Positions 7,477 to 12,517 of a stretch of 64,000 bases of DNA are shown one piece after another (position 1 is the first letter of the stretch; each line of letters opens with the position of its first letter). Under the pieces are notes generated by a model. It worked only from the letters and a program-made list of their open reading frames with translations. It did no database searches and was not told the origin of the DNA. This DNA is from an uncultured bacterium (GTDB lineage Bacteria > Omnitrophota > Omnitrophia > Omnitrophales > Aquincolibacteriaceae): assembly GCA_964373045.1 (NCBI GenBank), contig CAYJSI010000003.1, positions 9,030-73,029 of the forward strand, read 5' to 3'. A program made the position numbers and the translations under genes.

Positions 7477-7722
7477 ATGTTTCACGTCCTCATTATCAAC
7501 GCTCAAATAAAAACCCGGGAAGAAATTCTTTTTGAGGGTCAGGCCAAAAGCGTTGTCCTCCCCGGACAGGATGGTGAATTTGAGGTACTTGATTTCCATA
7601 AACCCATTATCAGCCGACTGAAAAAGGGGGTCATTACGGTCGATAATAAGGACGAATTCCGTATTCGGGACGGGATCGCAAAAATGGATCATCAGGACCT
7701 TGTCATCATGGTCGAGGTATGA
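7477..7722 (+). CDS. atpC: F-type ATP synthase epsilon subunit, short form (beta-sandwich domain only, no C-terminal helical hairpin)
   Basis: ATG at 7477. MFHVLIINAQIKTREEILFEGQAKSVVLPGQDGEFEVLDFHKPIISRLKKGVITV matches the epsilon N-terminal domain pattern (V..PG..GE.GIL..H.P). The 81-aa product lacks the usual ~50-aa inhibitory helices. Stop overlaps the next start (ATGA). Confidence 0.75.
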   Translation: MFHVLIINAQIKTREEILFEGQAKSVVLPGQDGEFEVLDFHKPIISRLKKGVITVDNKDEFRIRDGIAKMDHQDLVIMVEV

Positions 7723-7931
7723 AAAATTTAATCATTATCCTGATTATGGCGCTTGGGATCTTGGGACCCTCCCTCGTGATTGCGGCGGTGGGTTTTTCAA
7801 GCATCATGGCCCTCGGCCGGAACCCTTCTTCGGCTCCCAAGATTATGCTGGCCATGATCATCGCCCTTATTTTTGCGGAGGCCATCGCCGTGATTGCACT
7901 CTTAGTTGTGTTTCAGGTGTTTACGCCATAA
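7719..7931 (+). CDS. atpE: F-type ATP synthase c subunit (proteolipid)
   Basis: 70-aa two-helix hairpin. GRNP loop and conserved carboxylate in helix 2 (ALIFAEAIAVIALL). Confidence 0.85.
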   Translation: MKNLIIILIMALGILGPSLVIAAVGFSSIMALGRNPSSAPKIMLAMIIALIFAEAIAVIALLVVFQVFTP

Positions 7932-7944
7932 AGAGAGGGAAACG

Positions 7945-8694
7945 ATGGTCTTAACCATTATCATTTTTCAGGGGCTGGTTTTTCTCGCCCTCATTCTGAT
8001 CCTGCGGCATTTCATGAAGGGGCATGTGAGCGGAGCCGTGGGCCATCTTCAGAGATTAAACGATGAACTGGTCAAGCAGCAGGTAACCCTTAAAGAAAAG
8101 ATTGCCGCTGCGGAAAAAGAATATGAAACCAAAATGGTCAAGCTCCAACAGGAAGTGACGGCCCGCCAGGCCGAGTCGCGGCAGGCGGCGACCAAGGCCC
8201 TTGAAGAGGCCCGTCAGCGCGCCCTGCAGGAGCGTGAAAAGATTATCAATGAAGCGGTGGAGACGCGGGAGAAGATGCGTCAAGAAATCATGGCAGAAAT
8301 GGAAGAGAAGGCCGTCCAGCATTCCAAGGAAATCATTGTAAGCTCGCTTACCCCACAGGCGCGTCAGGCCATTCATGAGATTTTGGTGCGAGAAGTGGCG
8401 GAGGGGATTCGGGGGGAATCAAAAATGGATCACTTTCAGATTGCCTCCGAGACCGCCGAACTTCGCACCGCGGAGCCGCTTACCAATGAGTGCAAGCAGC
8501 AGATTCAAAAGGCGTTAAAAGAAAAGATTCGCAAAGAGTTTCATTTCAAAGAAGCCTCTGATCCCTCCCTCATTGCCGGTGTGATCCTAAAATTCGGCTC
8601 CTTCGTCATCGATGGCAGTTTGCTTCATCGCCTCGAGGGGGCTTCTGCGCGCGTAAGGCAGGAGACGGTTCGAAAATATCAGGGAAAGGTCTAG
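7945..8694 (+). CDS. atpF: ATP synthase b subunit fused to a C-terminal delta (OSCP) domain
   Basis: ATG 7945 with RBS agagaggga upstream. N-terminal TM helix VLTIIIFQGLVFLALILIL and a long charged coiled coil. C-terminus DPSLIAGVILKFGSFVIDGSLLHRLEG matches the delta-subunit C-terminal signature (..LIGG..I..GD.VIDGSV..RL). The N-terminal delta helical bundle is absent. Confidence 0.8.
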   Translation: MVLTIIIFQGLVFLALILILRHFMKGHVSGAVGHLQRLNDELVKQQVTLKEKIAAAEKEYETKMVKLQQEVTARQAESRQAATKALEEARQRALQEREKIINEAVETREKMRQEIMAEMEEKAVQHSKEIIVSSLTPQARQAIHEILVREVAEGIRGESKMDHFQIASETAELRTAEPLTNECKQQIQKALKEKIRKEFHFKEASDPSLIAGVILKFGSFVIDGSLLHRLEGASARVRQETVRKYQGKV

Positions 8695-10227: not shown

Positions 10228-10229
10228 CG

Positions 10230-11105
10230 ATGGCTACTAAAACATTGCCCAAACTTAAATCGGAGATGGTCTTTAATCAGGATCTTGCGCGCTTAGTCGA
10301 CGTCATGAAAGGCATTGCCGCTGCTCAGTATCAAATGATGGAGCGGAAGCGAACAAACCTTGAGCGAAGGAGCAAGACGATCGAGGACCTGTTTCGACTG
10401 TACGATTTTCGCCTCGAAAAACACCCCTTTATCTGCGCCGTGAAGCCCCCCAAACTGATCTGCCTTGTCACGACCGATTCCGGGTTTCTCGGCGGTCTCA
10501 ATATGAAGGTGGCCCAGGCAGGGATTAAGTATGAAGATGAAGGTTCGCAATATCTGGTCATTGGCGAACGGGGTGTCAATTATATGCGTGAGTTTGGGCG
10601 CACTTGTATTCCGTATCCCGGTATCAATCCCGATGAGAGCCGATTTGATTTAGCGCAAAAAGTACGCGATAAAATTTTCAGTCTTATCAAGGAAAAAAAG
10701 GTAGGACGTGTTATTCTCATCCATCCTTTTCCGGTCTCCTTTGCTGCCCAGCGCATCGAAATCCTGAATTTGATTCCTTGCCCGCTTTTTTTTAAAGAGC
10801 GCACCCGCGAGGTTCGGCTCCCCGAGGCGCAGGCCAAGGGGGTTATTCTGGAGTCGGGGGCACGGGGGGTCATTGAATATCTCACAAGACTTTGGCTCGA
10901 TAAGCGCCTGATCGAAATATTTGAGCAGTCAAAACTGGCTGAATTTGGTGCGAGAACGATGCATTTGGAAGAGAGCTATCAAACCTTAAGCAAGCTGAAT
11001 CAGCGGCTTAAGCTCTCTTTCTTTAAGGCACGCCGGGAAAAAATCGATCAGAGCCTTCGCGAATCCTTCACCTCCCAGTTGATGTGCGGAGAGGAGGAAT
11101 CATGA
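10230..11105 (+). CDS. atpG: F-type ATP synthase gamma subunit
   Basis: N-terminal helix [30 protein letters not shown] resembles the gamma N-terminus (I...I.SV.NT.KIT.AMEMVAA.K). Position between alpha and beta. 291 aa. Confidence 0.75.
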
Positions 11106-12517
11106 CTCAGTCCTCGCCTCTCGGTTCTCAGAACCCCGTCGGATGCGTGATCTCGGTTCAGGGGCCGGTGGTGGATGTTCGTTTTAATTCGGTGGAAGAA
11201 GTCCCGGCGGTTAATCACGTGCTCGAGACGAAAACCTACGACGGGCAAAAGATCGTCATGGAAGTGGCGGAGCACTTGCCCGGGAACATTACTCGCTGCA
11301 TTTCCCTAAACTCGACCATTAATCTTCAACGAAGCGCTCCCGCAAGGTCCCTTGGGGCCTCGGTTCAGGTGCCCGTAGGCAATGAAACCTTCGGCCGTAT
11401 TTTGAATGTGTTGGGAGAGCCTTATGATAAAAAGCCTCCCGTGCAGGCGAAGCGATATATGCCGATCCGCCAGAAGCGCGAGAGTCTTTATATCAATCCC
11501 GACGCGGCGGGTTCCAAGTTCCAAGTGCTTGAAACAGGAATCAAGATCATCGACCTTCTTTTTCCCATGGTGAAAGGCAGTAAATCAGGCGTTTTGGGAG
11601 GTGCTGGCATGGGAAAAAGCGTGCTTACGCTTGAATTAATTCATAATATTGCGACGCGTCATAAGGGGGCCTCGGTCTTTGCCGGGGTGGGGGAACGTAT
11701 CCGCGAAGGCAATGAGCTCTACTATGAAATTGAACATGCGGGGCTGCTGGATAAAGTGGTGATGGTGTTCGGCCAGATGAATGAACCTCCGGGCGCTCGT
11801 TTCGGAGTCGTTTCCACCGGTATTACCATTGCCGAGGACATTCAAAAACAAAACAAAGACGTGCTTTTCTTTGTGGACAATGTTTTCCGTTTTGTTCAGG
11901 CGGGTGCAGAGATCTCCACTTTGCTGGGCCGTGTTCCCTCCGAAACGGGTTATCAGCCGACGCTCGCCATGGAAGTGGCGGAGTTTCAAGAACGCATTCG
12001 TTCCATCCCCGGCCGCGGTTCCATTACGGCTGTGGAGGCTGTTTATGTGCCGGCGGATGATTTGACGGACCCGTCAGTCGTCGCAATTTTCAGCTTTTTG
12101 GATTCCGTCATGGTGCTGACCCGTGAGAGGATTCAGCTTGGACTTTATCCCGCCATCGATCCCTTGTTATCTTCATGCGGAAATTTGGATCCCTCGATTG
12201 TGGGACAAAGACACTTTGATCTGGCTCAGGAGGTCGTTCGTATCTTCAATAAATACGAGGAGTTACGACGAATTGTCGCGGTGGTCGGTGTGGATGAGCT
12301 TTCGCGGGCGGATCGCACTCTTTTTGACCGGGCACGCAAAATGCAATTTTTTCTCACGCAACCCTTCTTTGTGGCCGAATCATACTCCGGCATGAAAGGG
12401 GAGTATGTTACGACTAAACAGAGTCTGGACGGATGCGAACGAATTGTCGACGGCCGCGTCGATCGGATTCCAGAAGAGAAGTTCTATATGCAGGGATCGC
12501 TCGATAAAATCCTGTGA
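11102..12517 (+). CDS. atpD: F-type ATP synthase beta subunit
   Basis: ATG 11102 overlaps the gamma stop (ATGA). P-loop [23 protein letters not shown] motif ([12 protein letters not shown]). Confidence 0.92.

What the first reader, a model, noticed from the sequence alone, without database searches (positions are those of the whole stretch)
7477..12517. Non-canonical F-ATP synthase operon: epsilon-c-b/delta-alpha-gamma-beta with no a subunit, a b-delta(C-terminal) fusion and a truncated epsilon
The canonical order is a-c-b-delta-alpha-gamma-beta-epsilon. Here epsilon is first, directly after the upstream giant gene with a 59-nt gap. The proton-channel a subunit (atpB) and atpI are absent from the operon. 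The b subunit carries only the C-terminal delta (OSCP) domain (DPSLIAGVILKFGSFVIDGSLLHRLEG) without the N-terminal helical bundle that normally binds alpha. Epsilon lacks its regulatory C-terminal helices. The genes are tightly coupled (ATGA overlaps). They are functional only if a separate atpB(-atpE) locus exists elsewhere.
Basis: partly seen in the sequence, partly recalled or inferred. Interest (0 to 1): 0.6.

Follow-up and report, generated by a model that had tools for sequence, protein, structure and literature searches.

The report
Omnitrophota accessory F-type ATPase without a-subunit
This is a real six-gene F-type ATPase cluster with no proton-channel a subunit; across the phylum Omnitrophota it always sits between the membrane anchor of a giant surface protein and pilus/secretion genes, so it is probably an ATP-burning motor for that surface machinery rather than the cell's ATP synthase.

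Summary
Window 7477-12517 encodes epsilon (81 aa, beta-sandwich only), c, a b/delta-C-terminal-domain fusion, alpha, gamma and beta, tightly coupled. No a subunit is encoded anywhere in the 64-kb window.

It is not a one-off. In 13 other Omnitrophota loci the same gene set, in two gene orders, follows a giant ORF and a conserved, uncharacterised membrane-anchor module. Where the contig reaches far enough, it is followed by GspE/GspF/pseudopilin genes. None of these loci encodes an a subunit.

Seymour et al. 2023 already reported this locus type as a 'symbiotic', non-respiratory F-type ATPase next to type-4 pilus genes.

Three points appear in none of the papers I could search:
- The cluster lacks a but keeps c, which has an almost invariant Glu.
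- The stalk resembles that of N-ATPases and subunit E, and alpha has lost its delta-binding helix.
- The anchor module is always adjacent.

Alpha and beta keep all catalytic residues. They score as canonical F1, not as Mycoplasma type 2/3.

Most likely (about 0.5) it is an ATP-hydrolysing rotary motor serving the giant-protein/pilus apparatus. The main rival (about 0.3) is an ordinary ion pump whose atpB lies elsewhere. I could not test that genome-wide.

The parts
2..7417 (+). C-terminal 2471 aa of a giant exported protein. It runs off the window's 5' end. It is Thr/Ser/Ala/Gly/Asp/Asn-rich, has no Pfam domain and has a single TM helix at residues 2390-2408.
   Evidence: Homologous giant ORFs (up to 7545 and 11903 aa) occupy the same position in L003 and L005.
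6590..7417 (+). Conserved 'anchor module', here fused to the C-terminus of the giant protein. It consists of a 7-strand beta-sandwich, three helices, one TM helix and a cytoplasmic tail of about 50 aa.
   Evidence: It lies directly upstream of the first ATPase gene in 14 of 14 loci, either fused or as a separate gene with its own signal peptide. AF2 model pLDDT 81.9, with no PDB fold match. No Pfam family. The family has 993 representatives.
7477..7722 (+). epsilon subunit, N-terminal beta-sandwich only (81 aa)
   Evidence: PF02823, E = 1.3e-14. It is 80-93 aa in all relatives.
7719..7931 (+). c subunit (70 aa), with Glu54 in helix 2 and an R34-N35-P36 loop
   Evidence: PF00137. 80-91% identical among type-A loci. 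Glu and RNP are invariant in 120 of 120 database homologues.
7945..8694 (+). Peripheral-stalk protein: the b subunit (N-terminal TM plus a long helix) fused to the C-terminal domain of delta/OSCP. There is no delta N-domain.
8701..10227 (+). alpha subunit. Walker A and the Arg finger are kept. The N-terminal delta-binding helix is missing.
   Evidence: TIGR00962 537 bits and NF009884 560 bits, both above their cut-offs. Alignments.
10230..11105 (+). gamma subunit (divergent)
   Evidence: PF00231, 91 bits. TIGR01146 scores 64 bits, below its cut-off of 194. Alignment.
11102..12517 (+). beta subunit with catalytic residues intact ([15 protein letters not shown], Walker B Asp, DELSRAD)
   Evidence: TIGR01039 569.5 bits, above its cut-off. 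Alignment. PDB comparison.
12525..12962 (+). Stand-alone MshEN-domain protein (the c-di-GMP-binding type of domain)
   Evidence: PF05157. Conserved at this position in type-A loci.
12978..20599 (+). T2SS/type-4-filament-like gene set: GspE, GspF, two pseudopilins (one GspJ-like), GspK, a PilM-PilN fusion, GspM and GspG
   Evidence: It follows beta in all 13 loci that extend far enough.
20599..20964 (+). Response-regulator receiver protein that closes the gene array
   Evidence: PF00072. That it belongs to the system is inferred from adjacency only.

Best explanation
The operon is the Omnitrophota accessory ('symbiotic') F-type ATPase.

Composition. It encodes a complete, catalytically competent F1 head (alpha3beta3) and a gamma-epsilon central shaft. 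A c-ring can dock to that shaft through its R-N-P loop. The single-TM peripheral stalk is built like the N-ATPase b subunit or V/A-type subunit E: a long helix plus a delta-C-terminal-like globular domain. There is no ion-channel a subunit.

Proposed mechanism. The complex most likely runs in the hydrolysis direction. The inhibitory C-terminal helices of epsilon are gone, which fits that direction. I propose that it acts as an ATP-driven rotary or mechanical motor in the inner membrane. It would serve the apparatus encoded on either side: a giant exported protein tethered by a conserved beta-sandwich/helix/TM anchor module, and a T2SS/type-4-filament-like machine that probably responds to c-di-GMP.

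Shown from sequence: the subunit inventory, the conserved catalytic and rotor-contact residues, the absence of a near the operon, and the conserved synteny.

Inferred: the direction of operation, physical coupling to the anchor module or pilus platform, and the biological role (attachment to, or attack on, host or prey cells, as Seymour et al. proposed).
For: 1. Synteny. Giant ORF, then anchor module, then ATPase genes, then GspE/GspF/pseudopilins, in 14 of 14 distinct Omnitrophota loci. These span two gene orders, with alpha only 45-52% identical between the two orders. The genes are closely spaced, and no terminator signal rises above chance.

2. No a subunit. None is found in the window (64 kb) or in 13 loci with up to 10 kb of flank. 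The test had positive controls.

3. Intact F1. Beta keeps the P-loop Lys, the GER catalytic Glu and the Walker B Asp. Alpha keeps the Arg finger.

4. Regulatory and stator parts typical of ATP synthases were lost together. The epsilon C-domain, the delta N-domain and the alpha N-terminal helix that binds it are all missing in every member.

5. Published context. Seymour et al. 2023 (PMC10066038) found this ATPase within 10 kb of type-4 pilus genes in 57 of 66 contigs and called it non-respiratory. A 2026 preprint reports F-type alpha/beta in 125 of 176 complete Omnitrophota genomes but a canonical gamma in only 30-35. It also reports V/A-type ATPase subunits in 70-99% of most of class Gorgyraeia (the comparison group of 162 complete genomes). 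This fits an accessory enzyme beside another main ATPase.

6. Precedent. Mycoplasma type 2 and type 3 F1-like ATPases power surface machinery. They are encoded with an exported protein that carries C-terminal TM helices, and type 3 lies directly downstream of its surface partners MIB-MIP (PMC12994834).
Against: - The membrane-buried Glu of c is invariant in 120 of 120 homologues and in 13 of 14 loci. c is also the best-conserved small subunit. That is what one expects of a ring that still binds and hands over ions, and doing so needs an a subunit or a stand-in.
- The TM helix of b keeps canonical features.
- Alpha and beta pass the NCBIfam cut-offs for genuine atpA/atpD.
- I could not search whole genomes for an orphan atpB.
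- No expression or biochemical data were examined.
- Co-location could reflect co-regulation (for example, local energy supply for secretion) rather than physical coupling.
Confidence: 0.5

Rival explanations
1. It is an ordinary ion-translocating F-type enzyme: an N-ATPase-like H+ or Na+ pump, or an ATP synthase. Its a subunit is encoded at another locus. The placement next to secretion genes reflects co-regulation or local supply of membrane potential or ATP.
For: - The c Glu and R-N-P loop are strictly conserved.
- Rotor, head and stalk are all complete.
- Alpha and beta score above the atpA/atpD equivalog cut-offs.
- The b architecture is shared with an a-containing N-ATPase-like operon (L016).
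- Split atp operons are common in bacteria (my own knowledge, for example alpha-proteobacteria and cyanobacteria).
Against: - In known split operons a and c stay together. Here c travels without a in 14 of 14 loci across deep divergence.
- One lineage (L019) has replaced the c Glu by Ser.
- The delta N-domain, the alpha N-helix and the epsilon C-domain are all lost.
- In the part of Seymour's KO table that is held as text, genome 221 has K02111 and K02112 but not K02108. This is weak evidence, because c and gamma are not called there either.
Confidence: 0.3
2. It is a dedicated export or assembly ATPase. The F1-like head works like the FliI/FliJ ATPase of type III export and helps to thread or fold the giant protein across the inner membrane. 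The c/b parts serve only as a membrane dock.
For: The operon lies immediately after the giant gene and its anchor. F1 and type III export ATPases are homologous; FliI/SctN models hit alpha and beta at about 185 bits. Export of proteins of 2,500 to 12,000 aa is a special problem.
Against: A complete gamma-epsilon-c rotor is kept, which an export ATPase would not need. No export-gate homologues are present. There is no evidence of contact with the Sec system. This reading overlaps with the best explanation and cannot be separated from it by sequence.
Confidence: 0.1
3. It is a decaying remnant of an ATP synthase operon that has lost atpB, and it has no function.
For: Parts are missing: a, the delta N-domain and the epsilon C-domain.
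Against: All six ORFs are intact. Between loci whose b/delta is only about 52% identical, alpha is 75-82%, beta 80-86% and c 80-91% identical. Catalytic residues are invariant. The arrangement is kept in two subtypes across the phylum.
Confidence: 0.03

Closest known systems
Omnitrophota 'symbiotic' F-type ATPase / type-4a pilus loci (sF-ATP; Seymour et al. 2023, Nat Microbiol, PMC10066038)
   Same: Same phylum. The F-type alpha/beta genes lie within 10 kb of GspE/PilB-type pilus genes, and giant ORFs occur in the same genomes. This window is an instance of that locus type.
   Different: In the text and supplements I could search, the paper treats only alpha and beta. It does not report the missing a subunit, the retained c, the b/delta-C-terminal stalk or the adjacent anchor module. 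It also places alpha with Mycoplasma type 2/3. Here alpha and beta score far better against canonical F1.
N-ATPase (alternate F1Fo; Dibrova et al. 2010; TIGR03305/03306/03321/03324)
   Same: There is no separate delta. The b subunit is a long protein of about 250 aa ending in a delta-C-terminal/E-like domain. TIGR03321 is the best family hit for the window's b/delta.
   Different: N-ATPase operons run beta-epsilon-Q-R-a-c-b-alpha-gamma and contain a, AtpQ and AtpR. Here a, Q and R are absent, the order differs and every N-ATPase HMM cut-off is missed. Alpha is only 36-39% identical to the N-like L016 alpha.
Mycoplasma type 2 (G1, gliding) and type 3 (F1-like X0, MIB-MIP) ATPases
   Same: Both are accessory F1-derived ATPases in a host- or prey-dependent bacterium. 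Alpha lacks the N-terminal delta-binding helix, and there is no a subunit. Both are encoded beside an exported protein with a C-terminal TM anchor and beside their surface partners. The proposed role is to transmit force across the membrane (PMC12994834, PMC3369863).
   Different: The Mycoplasma clusters have no c, b or delta. Instead they have a 12-TM protein and a small cytoplasmic protein. The window's alpha and beta miss the MMOB1660/1670 and MSC_0619/0618 cut-offs by 180-420 bits. The M. mobile G1 beta is the weakest of the 58 PDB hits.
Canonical bacterial F1Fo ATP synthase
   Same: Alpha, beta, gamma, epsilon (N-domain), c and b are homologous. Catalytic and rotor-contact residues are kept.
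   Different: There is no a or atpI nearby, no delta N-domain, no epsilon C-domain and no alpha N-helix. The gene order differs, and the operon is embedded in a surface-apparatus gene array.
Mycobacterial b-delta fusion (atpFH)
   Same: The stalk and delta are fused in one chain. The C-domain superposes at 1.1 A over 66 residues.
   Different: The mycobacterial protein is about 445 aa and contains the complete delta, including the N-terminal bundle. It pairs with a separate b. The window protein has 249 aa and only the C-domain.

Membership tests
Canonical F1Fo ATP synthase | alpha and beta that match the atpA/atpD equivalog models | tested here: met
   TIGR00962 536.7 bits (cut-off 484.45). 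TIGR01039 569.5 bits (cut-off 462.85).
Canonical F1Fo ATP synthase | an a subunit (PF00119) with the conserved Arg, forming the ion path with c | tested here: not met
   None in the 64-kb window or in 13 related loci. The rest of the genome could not be searched.
Canonical F1Fo ATP synthase | full-length delta/OSCP, whose N-domain binds the alpha N-terminal helices | tested here: not met
   Only OSCP profile positions 104-166 are present. The model has no helical bundle. Alpha lacks the N-terminal helix.
Canonical F1Fo ATP synthase | a c subunit with a membrane carboxylate and a polar R(Q/N)P loop | tested here: met
   Glu54 and R34-N35-P36.
Canonical F1Fo ATP synthase | a two-domain epsilon | tested here: not met
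   81 aa, PF02823 only.
N-ATPase | no delta gene, and a long b with a C-terminal globular domain | tested here: met
   PMC5706428
N-ATPase | operon atpD-C-Q-R-B-E-F-A-G, including a, AtpQ and AtpR | tested here: not met
   The order is epsilon-c-b/delta-alpha-gamma-beta. There is no a and there are no extra small membrane genes.
N-ATPase | scores above the TIGR03305/03321/03324 cut-offs | tested here: not met
   516.7 vs 752; 49 vs 224.7; 512.4 vs 750.5.
Mycoplasma type 2/3 F1-like ATPase | [quoted passage not shown] | tested here: not met
   387.6 vs 600; 427.8 vs 850; 302.9 vs 520; 390.8 vs 570. G1 beta 9io5_A scores 358 bits against 450-490 bits for canonical F1.
Mycoplasma type 2/3 F1-like ATPase | a seven-gene cluster with a 12-TM protein and a small cytoplasmic protein, without c and b | tested here: not met
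   c and b/delta are present, and there is no 12-TM protein. Cluster composition taken from PMC12994834.
Mycoplasma type 2/3 F1-like ATPase | an adjacent exported protein with a C-terminal TM anchor, and an alpha without the N-terminal helix | tested here: met
   Anchor module. Alpha N-terminus. This is analogy only; no sequence similarity was tested.
Omnitrophota sF-ATPase/T4P locus (Seymour 2023) | Omnitrophota origin, and F-type alpha/beta within 10 kb of type-4 pilus/T2SS genes | tested here: met
   Source names are Omnitrophota/Omnitrophica. Beta ends at 12517 and GspE starts at 12978.
Omnitrophota sF-ATPase/T4P locus (Seymour 2023) | alpha belongs to their monophyletic 'symbiotic' clade | tested here: inconclusive
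   In a small NJ tree, alpha groups with 7 other Omnitrophota alphas from the same gene context, apart from canonical and N-like alphas.

The most novel reading that the evidence does not exclude
The C-terminal TM helix of the anchor module sits in or on the c-ring. V-ATPase accessory proteins Ac45/Voa1 and PRR do this: they have a large extracytoplasmic domain, one TM helix in the centre of the c-ring and a short cytoplasmic tail (PMC10003446). If so, ATP-driven rotation of the a-less ring would turn, wind or pull the giant extracellular protein. The b/delta stalk would be braced against the T2SS-like inner-membrane platform. That would be a rotary F-type motor used as a winch or drill for a surface fibre during attachment to prey. 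It would be a new output for a rotary ATPase and a bacterial counterpart of the Mycoplasma gliding motor that still has its c-ring.
Probability: 0.12. Interest if true: 0.9.

Novelty: new member of a known kind. Interest (0 to 1): 0.6.

Why it matters
Rotary F-type ATPases are textbook ion-coupled machines. The only well-documented cases of F1 being re-used for something else are the Mycoplasma type 2 and type 3 systems, which have lost the whole Fo sector.

The Omnitrophota system would be an intermediate form. It keeps a c-ring with a strictly conserved carboxylate and a membrane stalk, it has no a subunit, and it is genetically tied to a giant surface protein and a pilus-like machine in suspected predatory or parasitic nanobacteria.

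If a is truly absent, the system gives a direct handle on two questions:
- What a c-ring does without its stator channel.
- How giant surface proteins of these bacteria are displayed or moved.

If an orphan atpB exists, the system is instead an unusual dedicated ion pump for a secretion apparatus. That would be less surprising but still useful for annotation, because current pipelines label these genes as ordinary ATP synthase.

Tried and rejected
- Assembly or annotation artefact: rejected. An independent Logan assembly carries the same genes (L001), and 13 other loci share the architecture.
- a subunit hidden in the window: rejected. Pfam scans of all sizeable ORFs and my own a-subunit HMM on six-frame ORFs found none.
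- The 320-aa ORF between the giant gene and epsilon in L003 as a divergent a: rejected. It is the anchor module, with a signal peptide, a beta-sandwich and one TM.
- The extra 76-80-aa ORF in type-B loci as an a-like protein: rejected. It is a second c-like hairpin.
- A conserved Arg in the anchor TM helix as a stand-in for the a-subunit Arg: rejected. The Arg of type A is not kept in type B.
- Membership of Mycoplasma type 2/3, as stated in the literature: not supported by HMM or PDB scores.
- Genome-wide search for atpB: not possible. The KO tables in the supplements were truncated.
- A literature search for a-less F-ATPases by phrase found nothing relevant.
- The first attempt at the locus scan, with a too-diverse alignment, failed.
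Full report
**1. What is there**

The + strand of window 7477-12517 carries six closely packed genes. Pfam assigns them as follows:

| Gene | Coordinates | Length and Pfam match |
|---|---|---|
| epsilon | 7477-7722 | 81 aa; PF02823 (beta-sandwich) only |
| c | 7719-7931 | 70 aa; PF00137 |
| b/delta | 7945-8694 | 249 aa; PF00430 over residues 5-132; PF00213 (OSCP) over residues 170-231, profile positions 104-166 of 172 |
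| alpha | 8701-10227 | - |
| gamma | 10230-11105 | - |
| beta | 11102-12517 | - |

So are the ATGA overlaps at the epsilon/c and gamma/beta junctions.

**2. No a subunit**

Pfam scans of all sizeable ORFs in the 64-kb window found no ATP-synt_A. The rest of the window holds T2SS-like genes, Wza/Wzc, housekeeping genes, a pyrimidine cluster and a second giant ORF.

As a direct test I built an HMM from a subunits that turned up in unrelated loci. I searched every six-frame ORF of at least 60 aa in the window and in 13 related loci. The two positive controls scored 483 and 317 bits. Nothing else scored better than E = 1.4.

The window begins inside the giant gene.

**3. State of the parts**

- **beta** keeps the P-loop (GGAGMGKS), the catalytic GERIREG, the Walker B Asp and a DELSRAD version of DELSEED.
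- **alpha** keeps GDRMTGKT and the SVSR Arg finger.
- **c** keeps the helix-2 Glu and an R-N-P loop.
- **alpha and beta** pass the NCBIfam cut-offs for genuine atpA/atpD: 536.7 against 484.45, and 569.5 against 462.85. They fail the cut-offs of the N-ATPase models and of the Mycoplasma MMOB1660/1670 and MSC_0619/0618 models.
- **Against the PDB**, both are closest to canonical bacterial F1 (450-490 bits). The M. mobile G1-ATPase beta is the weakest of 58 hits at 358 bits.
- **alpha N-terminus.** Every alpha of this type lacks the N-terminal amphipathic helix that binds the delta N-domain in canonical enzymes. This matches the absence of that domain from b/delta.
- **b/delta model.** The AlphaFold2 model (pLDDT 86.8) is a 133-residue helix, a short helix and an alpha/beta domain. 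The domain superposes on the delta C-terminal domain at 1.1 A over 66 residues. The whole chain resembles V-ATPase subunit E, with TM-scores of 0.43-0.54.
- **Closest family for b/delta** is the N-ATPase b subunit, TIGR03321: 49 bits, far below its cut-off. N-ATPases are known to lack delta and to have a longer, E-like b (PMC5706428).
- **Same b architecture with an a subunit.** A Binataceae operon, a-c-b(250 aa)-alpha, shows it (L016).

The fused stalk and the short epsilon are therefore known kinds of variation, not unique features. Short-epsilon families of 88-102 profile positions exist in NCBIfam.

**4. Lineage and neighbourhood**

The b/delta protein has about 65 relatives of about 248 aa with the same two Pfam domains. 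Those that carry a source name are from Omnitrophota.

I read 13 further distinct loci. They fall into two gene orders:
- **Type A**, as in the window: epsilon-c-b/delta-alpha-gamma-beta.
- **Type B**: alpha-epsilon-c-c'-b/delta-gamma-beta. Here c' is an extra c-like hairpin of 76-80 aa with its own conserved acidic residue.

Alphas of types A and B form one clade with 45-52% identity between the types. They are 35-40% identical to canonical and N-like alphas.

In all 14 loci the ATPase genes directly follow a conserved 'anchor module'. A giant ORF lies upstream of the module, or the module is fused to its C-terminus. In relatives the giant ORF reaches 7545 and 11903 aa.

In all 13 loci that extend far enough, beta is followed by GspE and GspF, and by pseudopilin genes wherever the contig continues past GspF. 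Type A also has a separate MshEN protein before GspE. Type-B GspE usually carries a PilZ domain.

I found no terminator signal above chance within the array.

**5. The anchor module**

This module is the last 270 aa or so of the window's giant protein. Elsewhere it is a separate protein of 300-320 aa, or a 435-450-aa protein with the domain duplicated. The separate forms have their own signal peptide.

It has no Pfam family. The AlphaFold2 model (pLDDT 81.9) shows a 7-strand beta-sandwich, three helices and one long TM helix, followed by a disordered cytoplasmic tail. No PDB fold match reached E < 0.2.

A profile search of 1.84 billion representative proteins found 993 relatives, 427 of them at E <= 1e-30. 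They are either stand-alone or at the extreme C-terminus of proteins of 1,000 to more than 5,000 aa.

No charged residue in the TM helix is conserved across both subtypes. The helix is therefore not an obvious stand-in for the a-subunit Arg.

**6. What is already published**

Seymour et al. 2023 (PMC10066038) described 'symbiotic' F-type ATPase/type-4a pilus loci in every class of Omnitrophota. [quoted passage not shown] The authors called the enzyme non-respiratory and grouped its alpha with Mycoplasma type 2/3. [quoted passage not shown] The window is an instance of that locus type.

The text and supplements I could search do not mention the missing a subunit, the retained c, the stalk architecture or the anchor module.

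West-Roberts et al. 2023 linked giant genes with T2SS-like loci but do not mention the ATPase.

A 2026 preprint on complete genomes reports F-type alpha/beta in 125 of 176 genomes but canonical gamma in only 30-35. It also reports V/A-type ATPase subunits in 70-99% of most of class Gorgyraeia, the comparison group of 162 complete genomes. This fits a divergent accessory F-type enzyme beside another main ATPase.

**7. How it most likely works**

*Shown from sequence:*
- A hydrolysis-competent alpha3beta3 head.
- A gamma-epsilon shaft and a c subunit with the loop that binds them.
- A membrane-anchored stalk.
- No a subunit nearby.
- Fixed genetic linkage to a membrane-tethered giant exported protein and a pilus/secretion machine.

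*Inferred:*
- The enzyme hydrolyses ATP. The inhibitory epsilon C-domain is absent, and the closest architectural relatives, the N-ATPases, are pumps.
- It delivers mechanical or conformational work to the neighbouring apparatus. [quoted passage not shown] Those are also encoded beside an exported protein with C-terminal TM helices, and type 3 lies directly downstream of its surface partners (PMC12994834).

I put this at about 0.5.

**8. The main difficulty and the rival**

The c Glu is invariant in the 120 best database homologues and in 13 of 14 loci. The single exception is L019, where Ser replaces it. c is also 80-91% identical between loci whose b/delta is about 52% identical.

A ring that never meets an a subunit has no known need for that carboxylate. 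The rival is therefore a genuine ion pump or synthase whose atpB lies elsewhere. It stays at about 0.3.

Against the rival: in split atp operons known to me, a and c stay together, whereas here c is never accompanied by a. In Seymour's partial KO table, one genome has K02111/K02112 but not K02108. That is weak evidence, because c and gamma are not called there either.

A non-functional remnant is excluded by the conservation data.

**9. Most novel reading not excluded**

The anchor helix could sit inside or against the c-ring, as the single TM helices of Ac45/Voa1 and PRR do in V-ATPases (PMC10003446). Rotation would then act directly on the giant extracellular protein. Nothing here tests this. 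I give it about 0.12.

**10. Verdict**

The feature is real and correctly described. It belongs to a locus type already reported in Omnitrophota, so it is a new member of a known kind. The a-less but c-retaining composition, the E-like stalk with matching loss of the alpha N-helix, and the always-adjacent anchor module are additions that I did not find in the literature I could search. They make the system a good candidate for structural and genome-wide follow-up.

Noticed in passing
window 52851-64000 (+): A second giant ORF of at least 3716 aa runs off the 3' end of the window. It has an N-terminal TM helix, a Leu/Arg/Glu-rich (cytoplasmic-looking) composition and one Inositol_P hit. It is unlike the Thr/Ser-rich giant protein upstream of the ATPase.
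   Followed up: partly
window 6590-7417; L003 8503-9465; L012 6341-7648: The conserved anchor module (beta-sandwich, three helices and a TM) defines an uncharacterised family. It has 993 representatives at 50% identity and no Pfam model. It is found stand-alone or at the extreme C-terminus of very long proteins.
   Followed up: yes
L012 9722-9961; L019 7231-7464; L020 13420-13662; L022 8581-8811: Type-B loci encode an extra two-helix c-like protein (c') of 76-80 aa between c and b/delta. It has a conserved Glu/Asp in helix 2 and a G-x-(Y/F)-P-T loop.
   Followed up: partly
L019 6985-7203: In this one locus the c subunit has Ser in place of the otherwise invariant membrane Glu, while c' keeps its Glu.
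   Followed up: no
window 12525-12962: A stand-alone MshEN-domain protein sits directly before GspE, which has its own MshEN domain. In type-B loci GspE usually carries a PilZ domain instead. Both domain types are known c-di-GMP binders, which suggests second-messenger control of the whole array.
   Followed up: no
L003 13242-15110; L009 11220-13221; L005 16963-17319: Relatives have insertions inside the array. L003 has a PAS histidine kinase between gamma and beta. L009 has a gap of about 2 kb at the same place. L005 has a 23S-rRNA-IVP-family gene between GspE and GspF.
   Followed up: no
window 21816-25152: Wza-like (Poly_export/SLBB) and Wzc-like (Wzz/GNVR/AAA_31) polysaccharide export genes follow the T2SS-like genes. 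No secretin gene was recognised in the array.
   Followed up: no
window 42531-52609: A contiguous pyrimidine biosynthesis cluster: a phosphoribosyltransferase, then pyrB, pyrC, carA, carB, pyrK, pyrD and pyrF. A G/C-rich hairpin follows at about 52620-52665.
   Followed up: no
L016 508-3895: A Binataceae contig carries an a-c-b(250 aa)-alpha operon. Its b has the same b plus delta-C-terminal architecture, and its alpha passes NF009884. It is useful as an a-containing comparator.
   Followed up: partly
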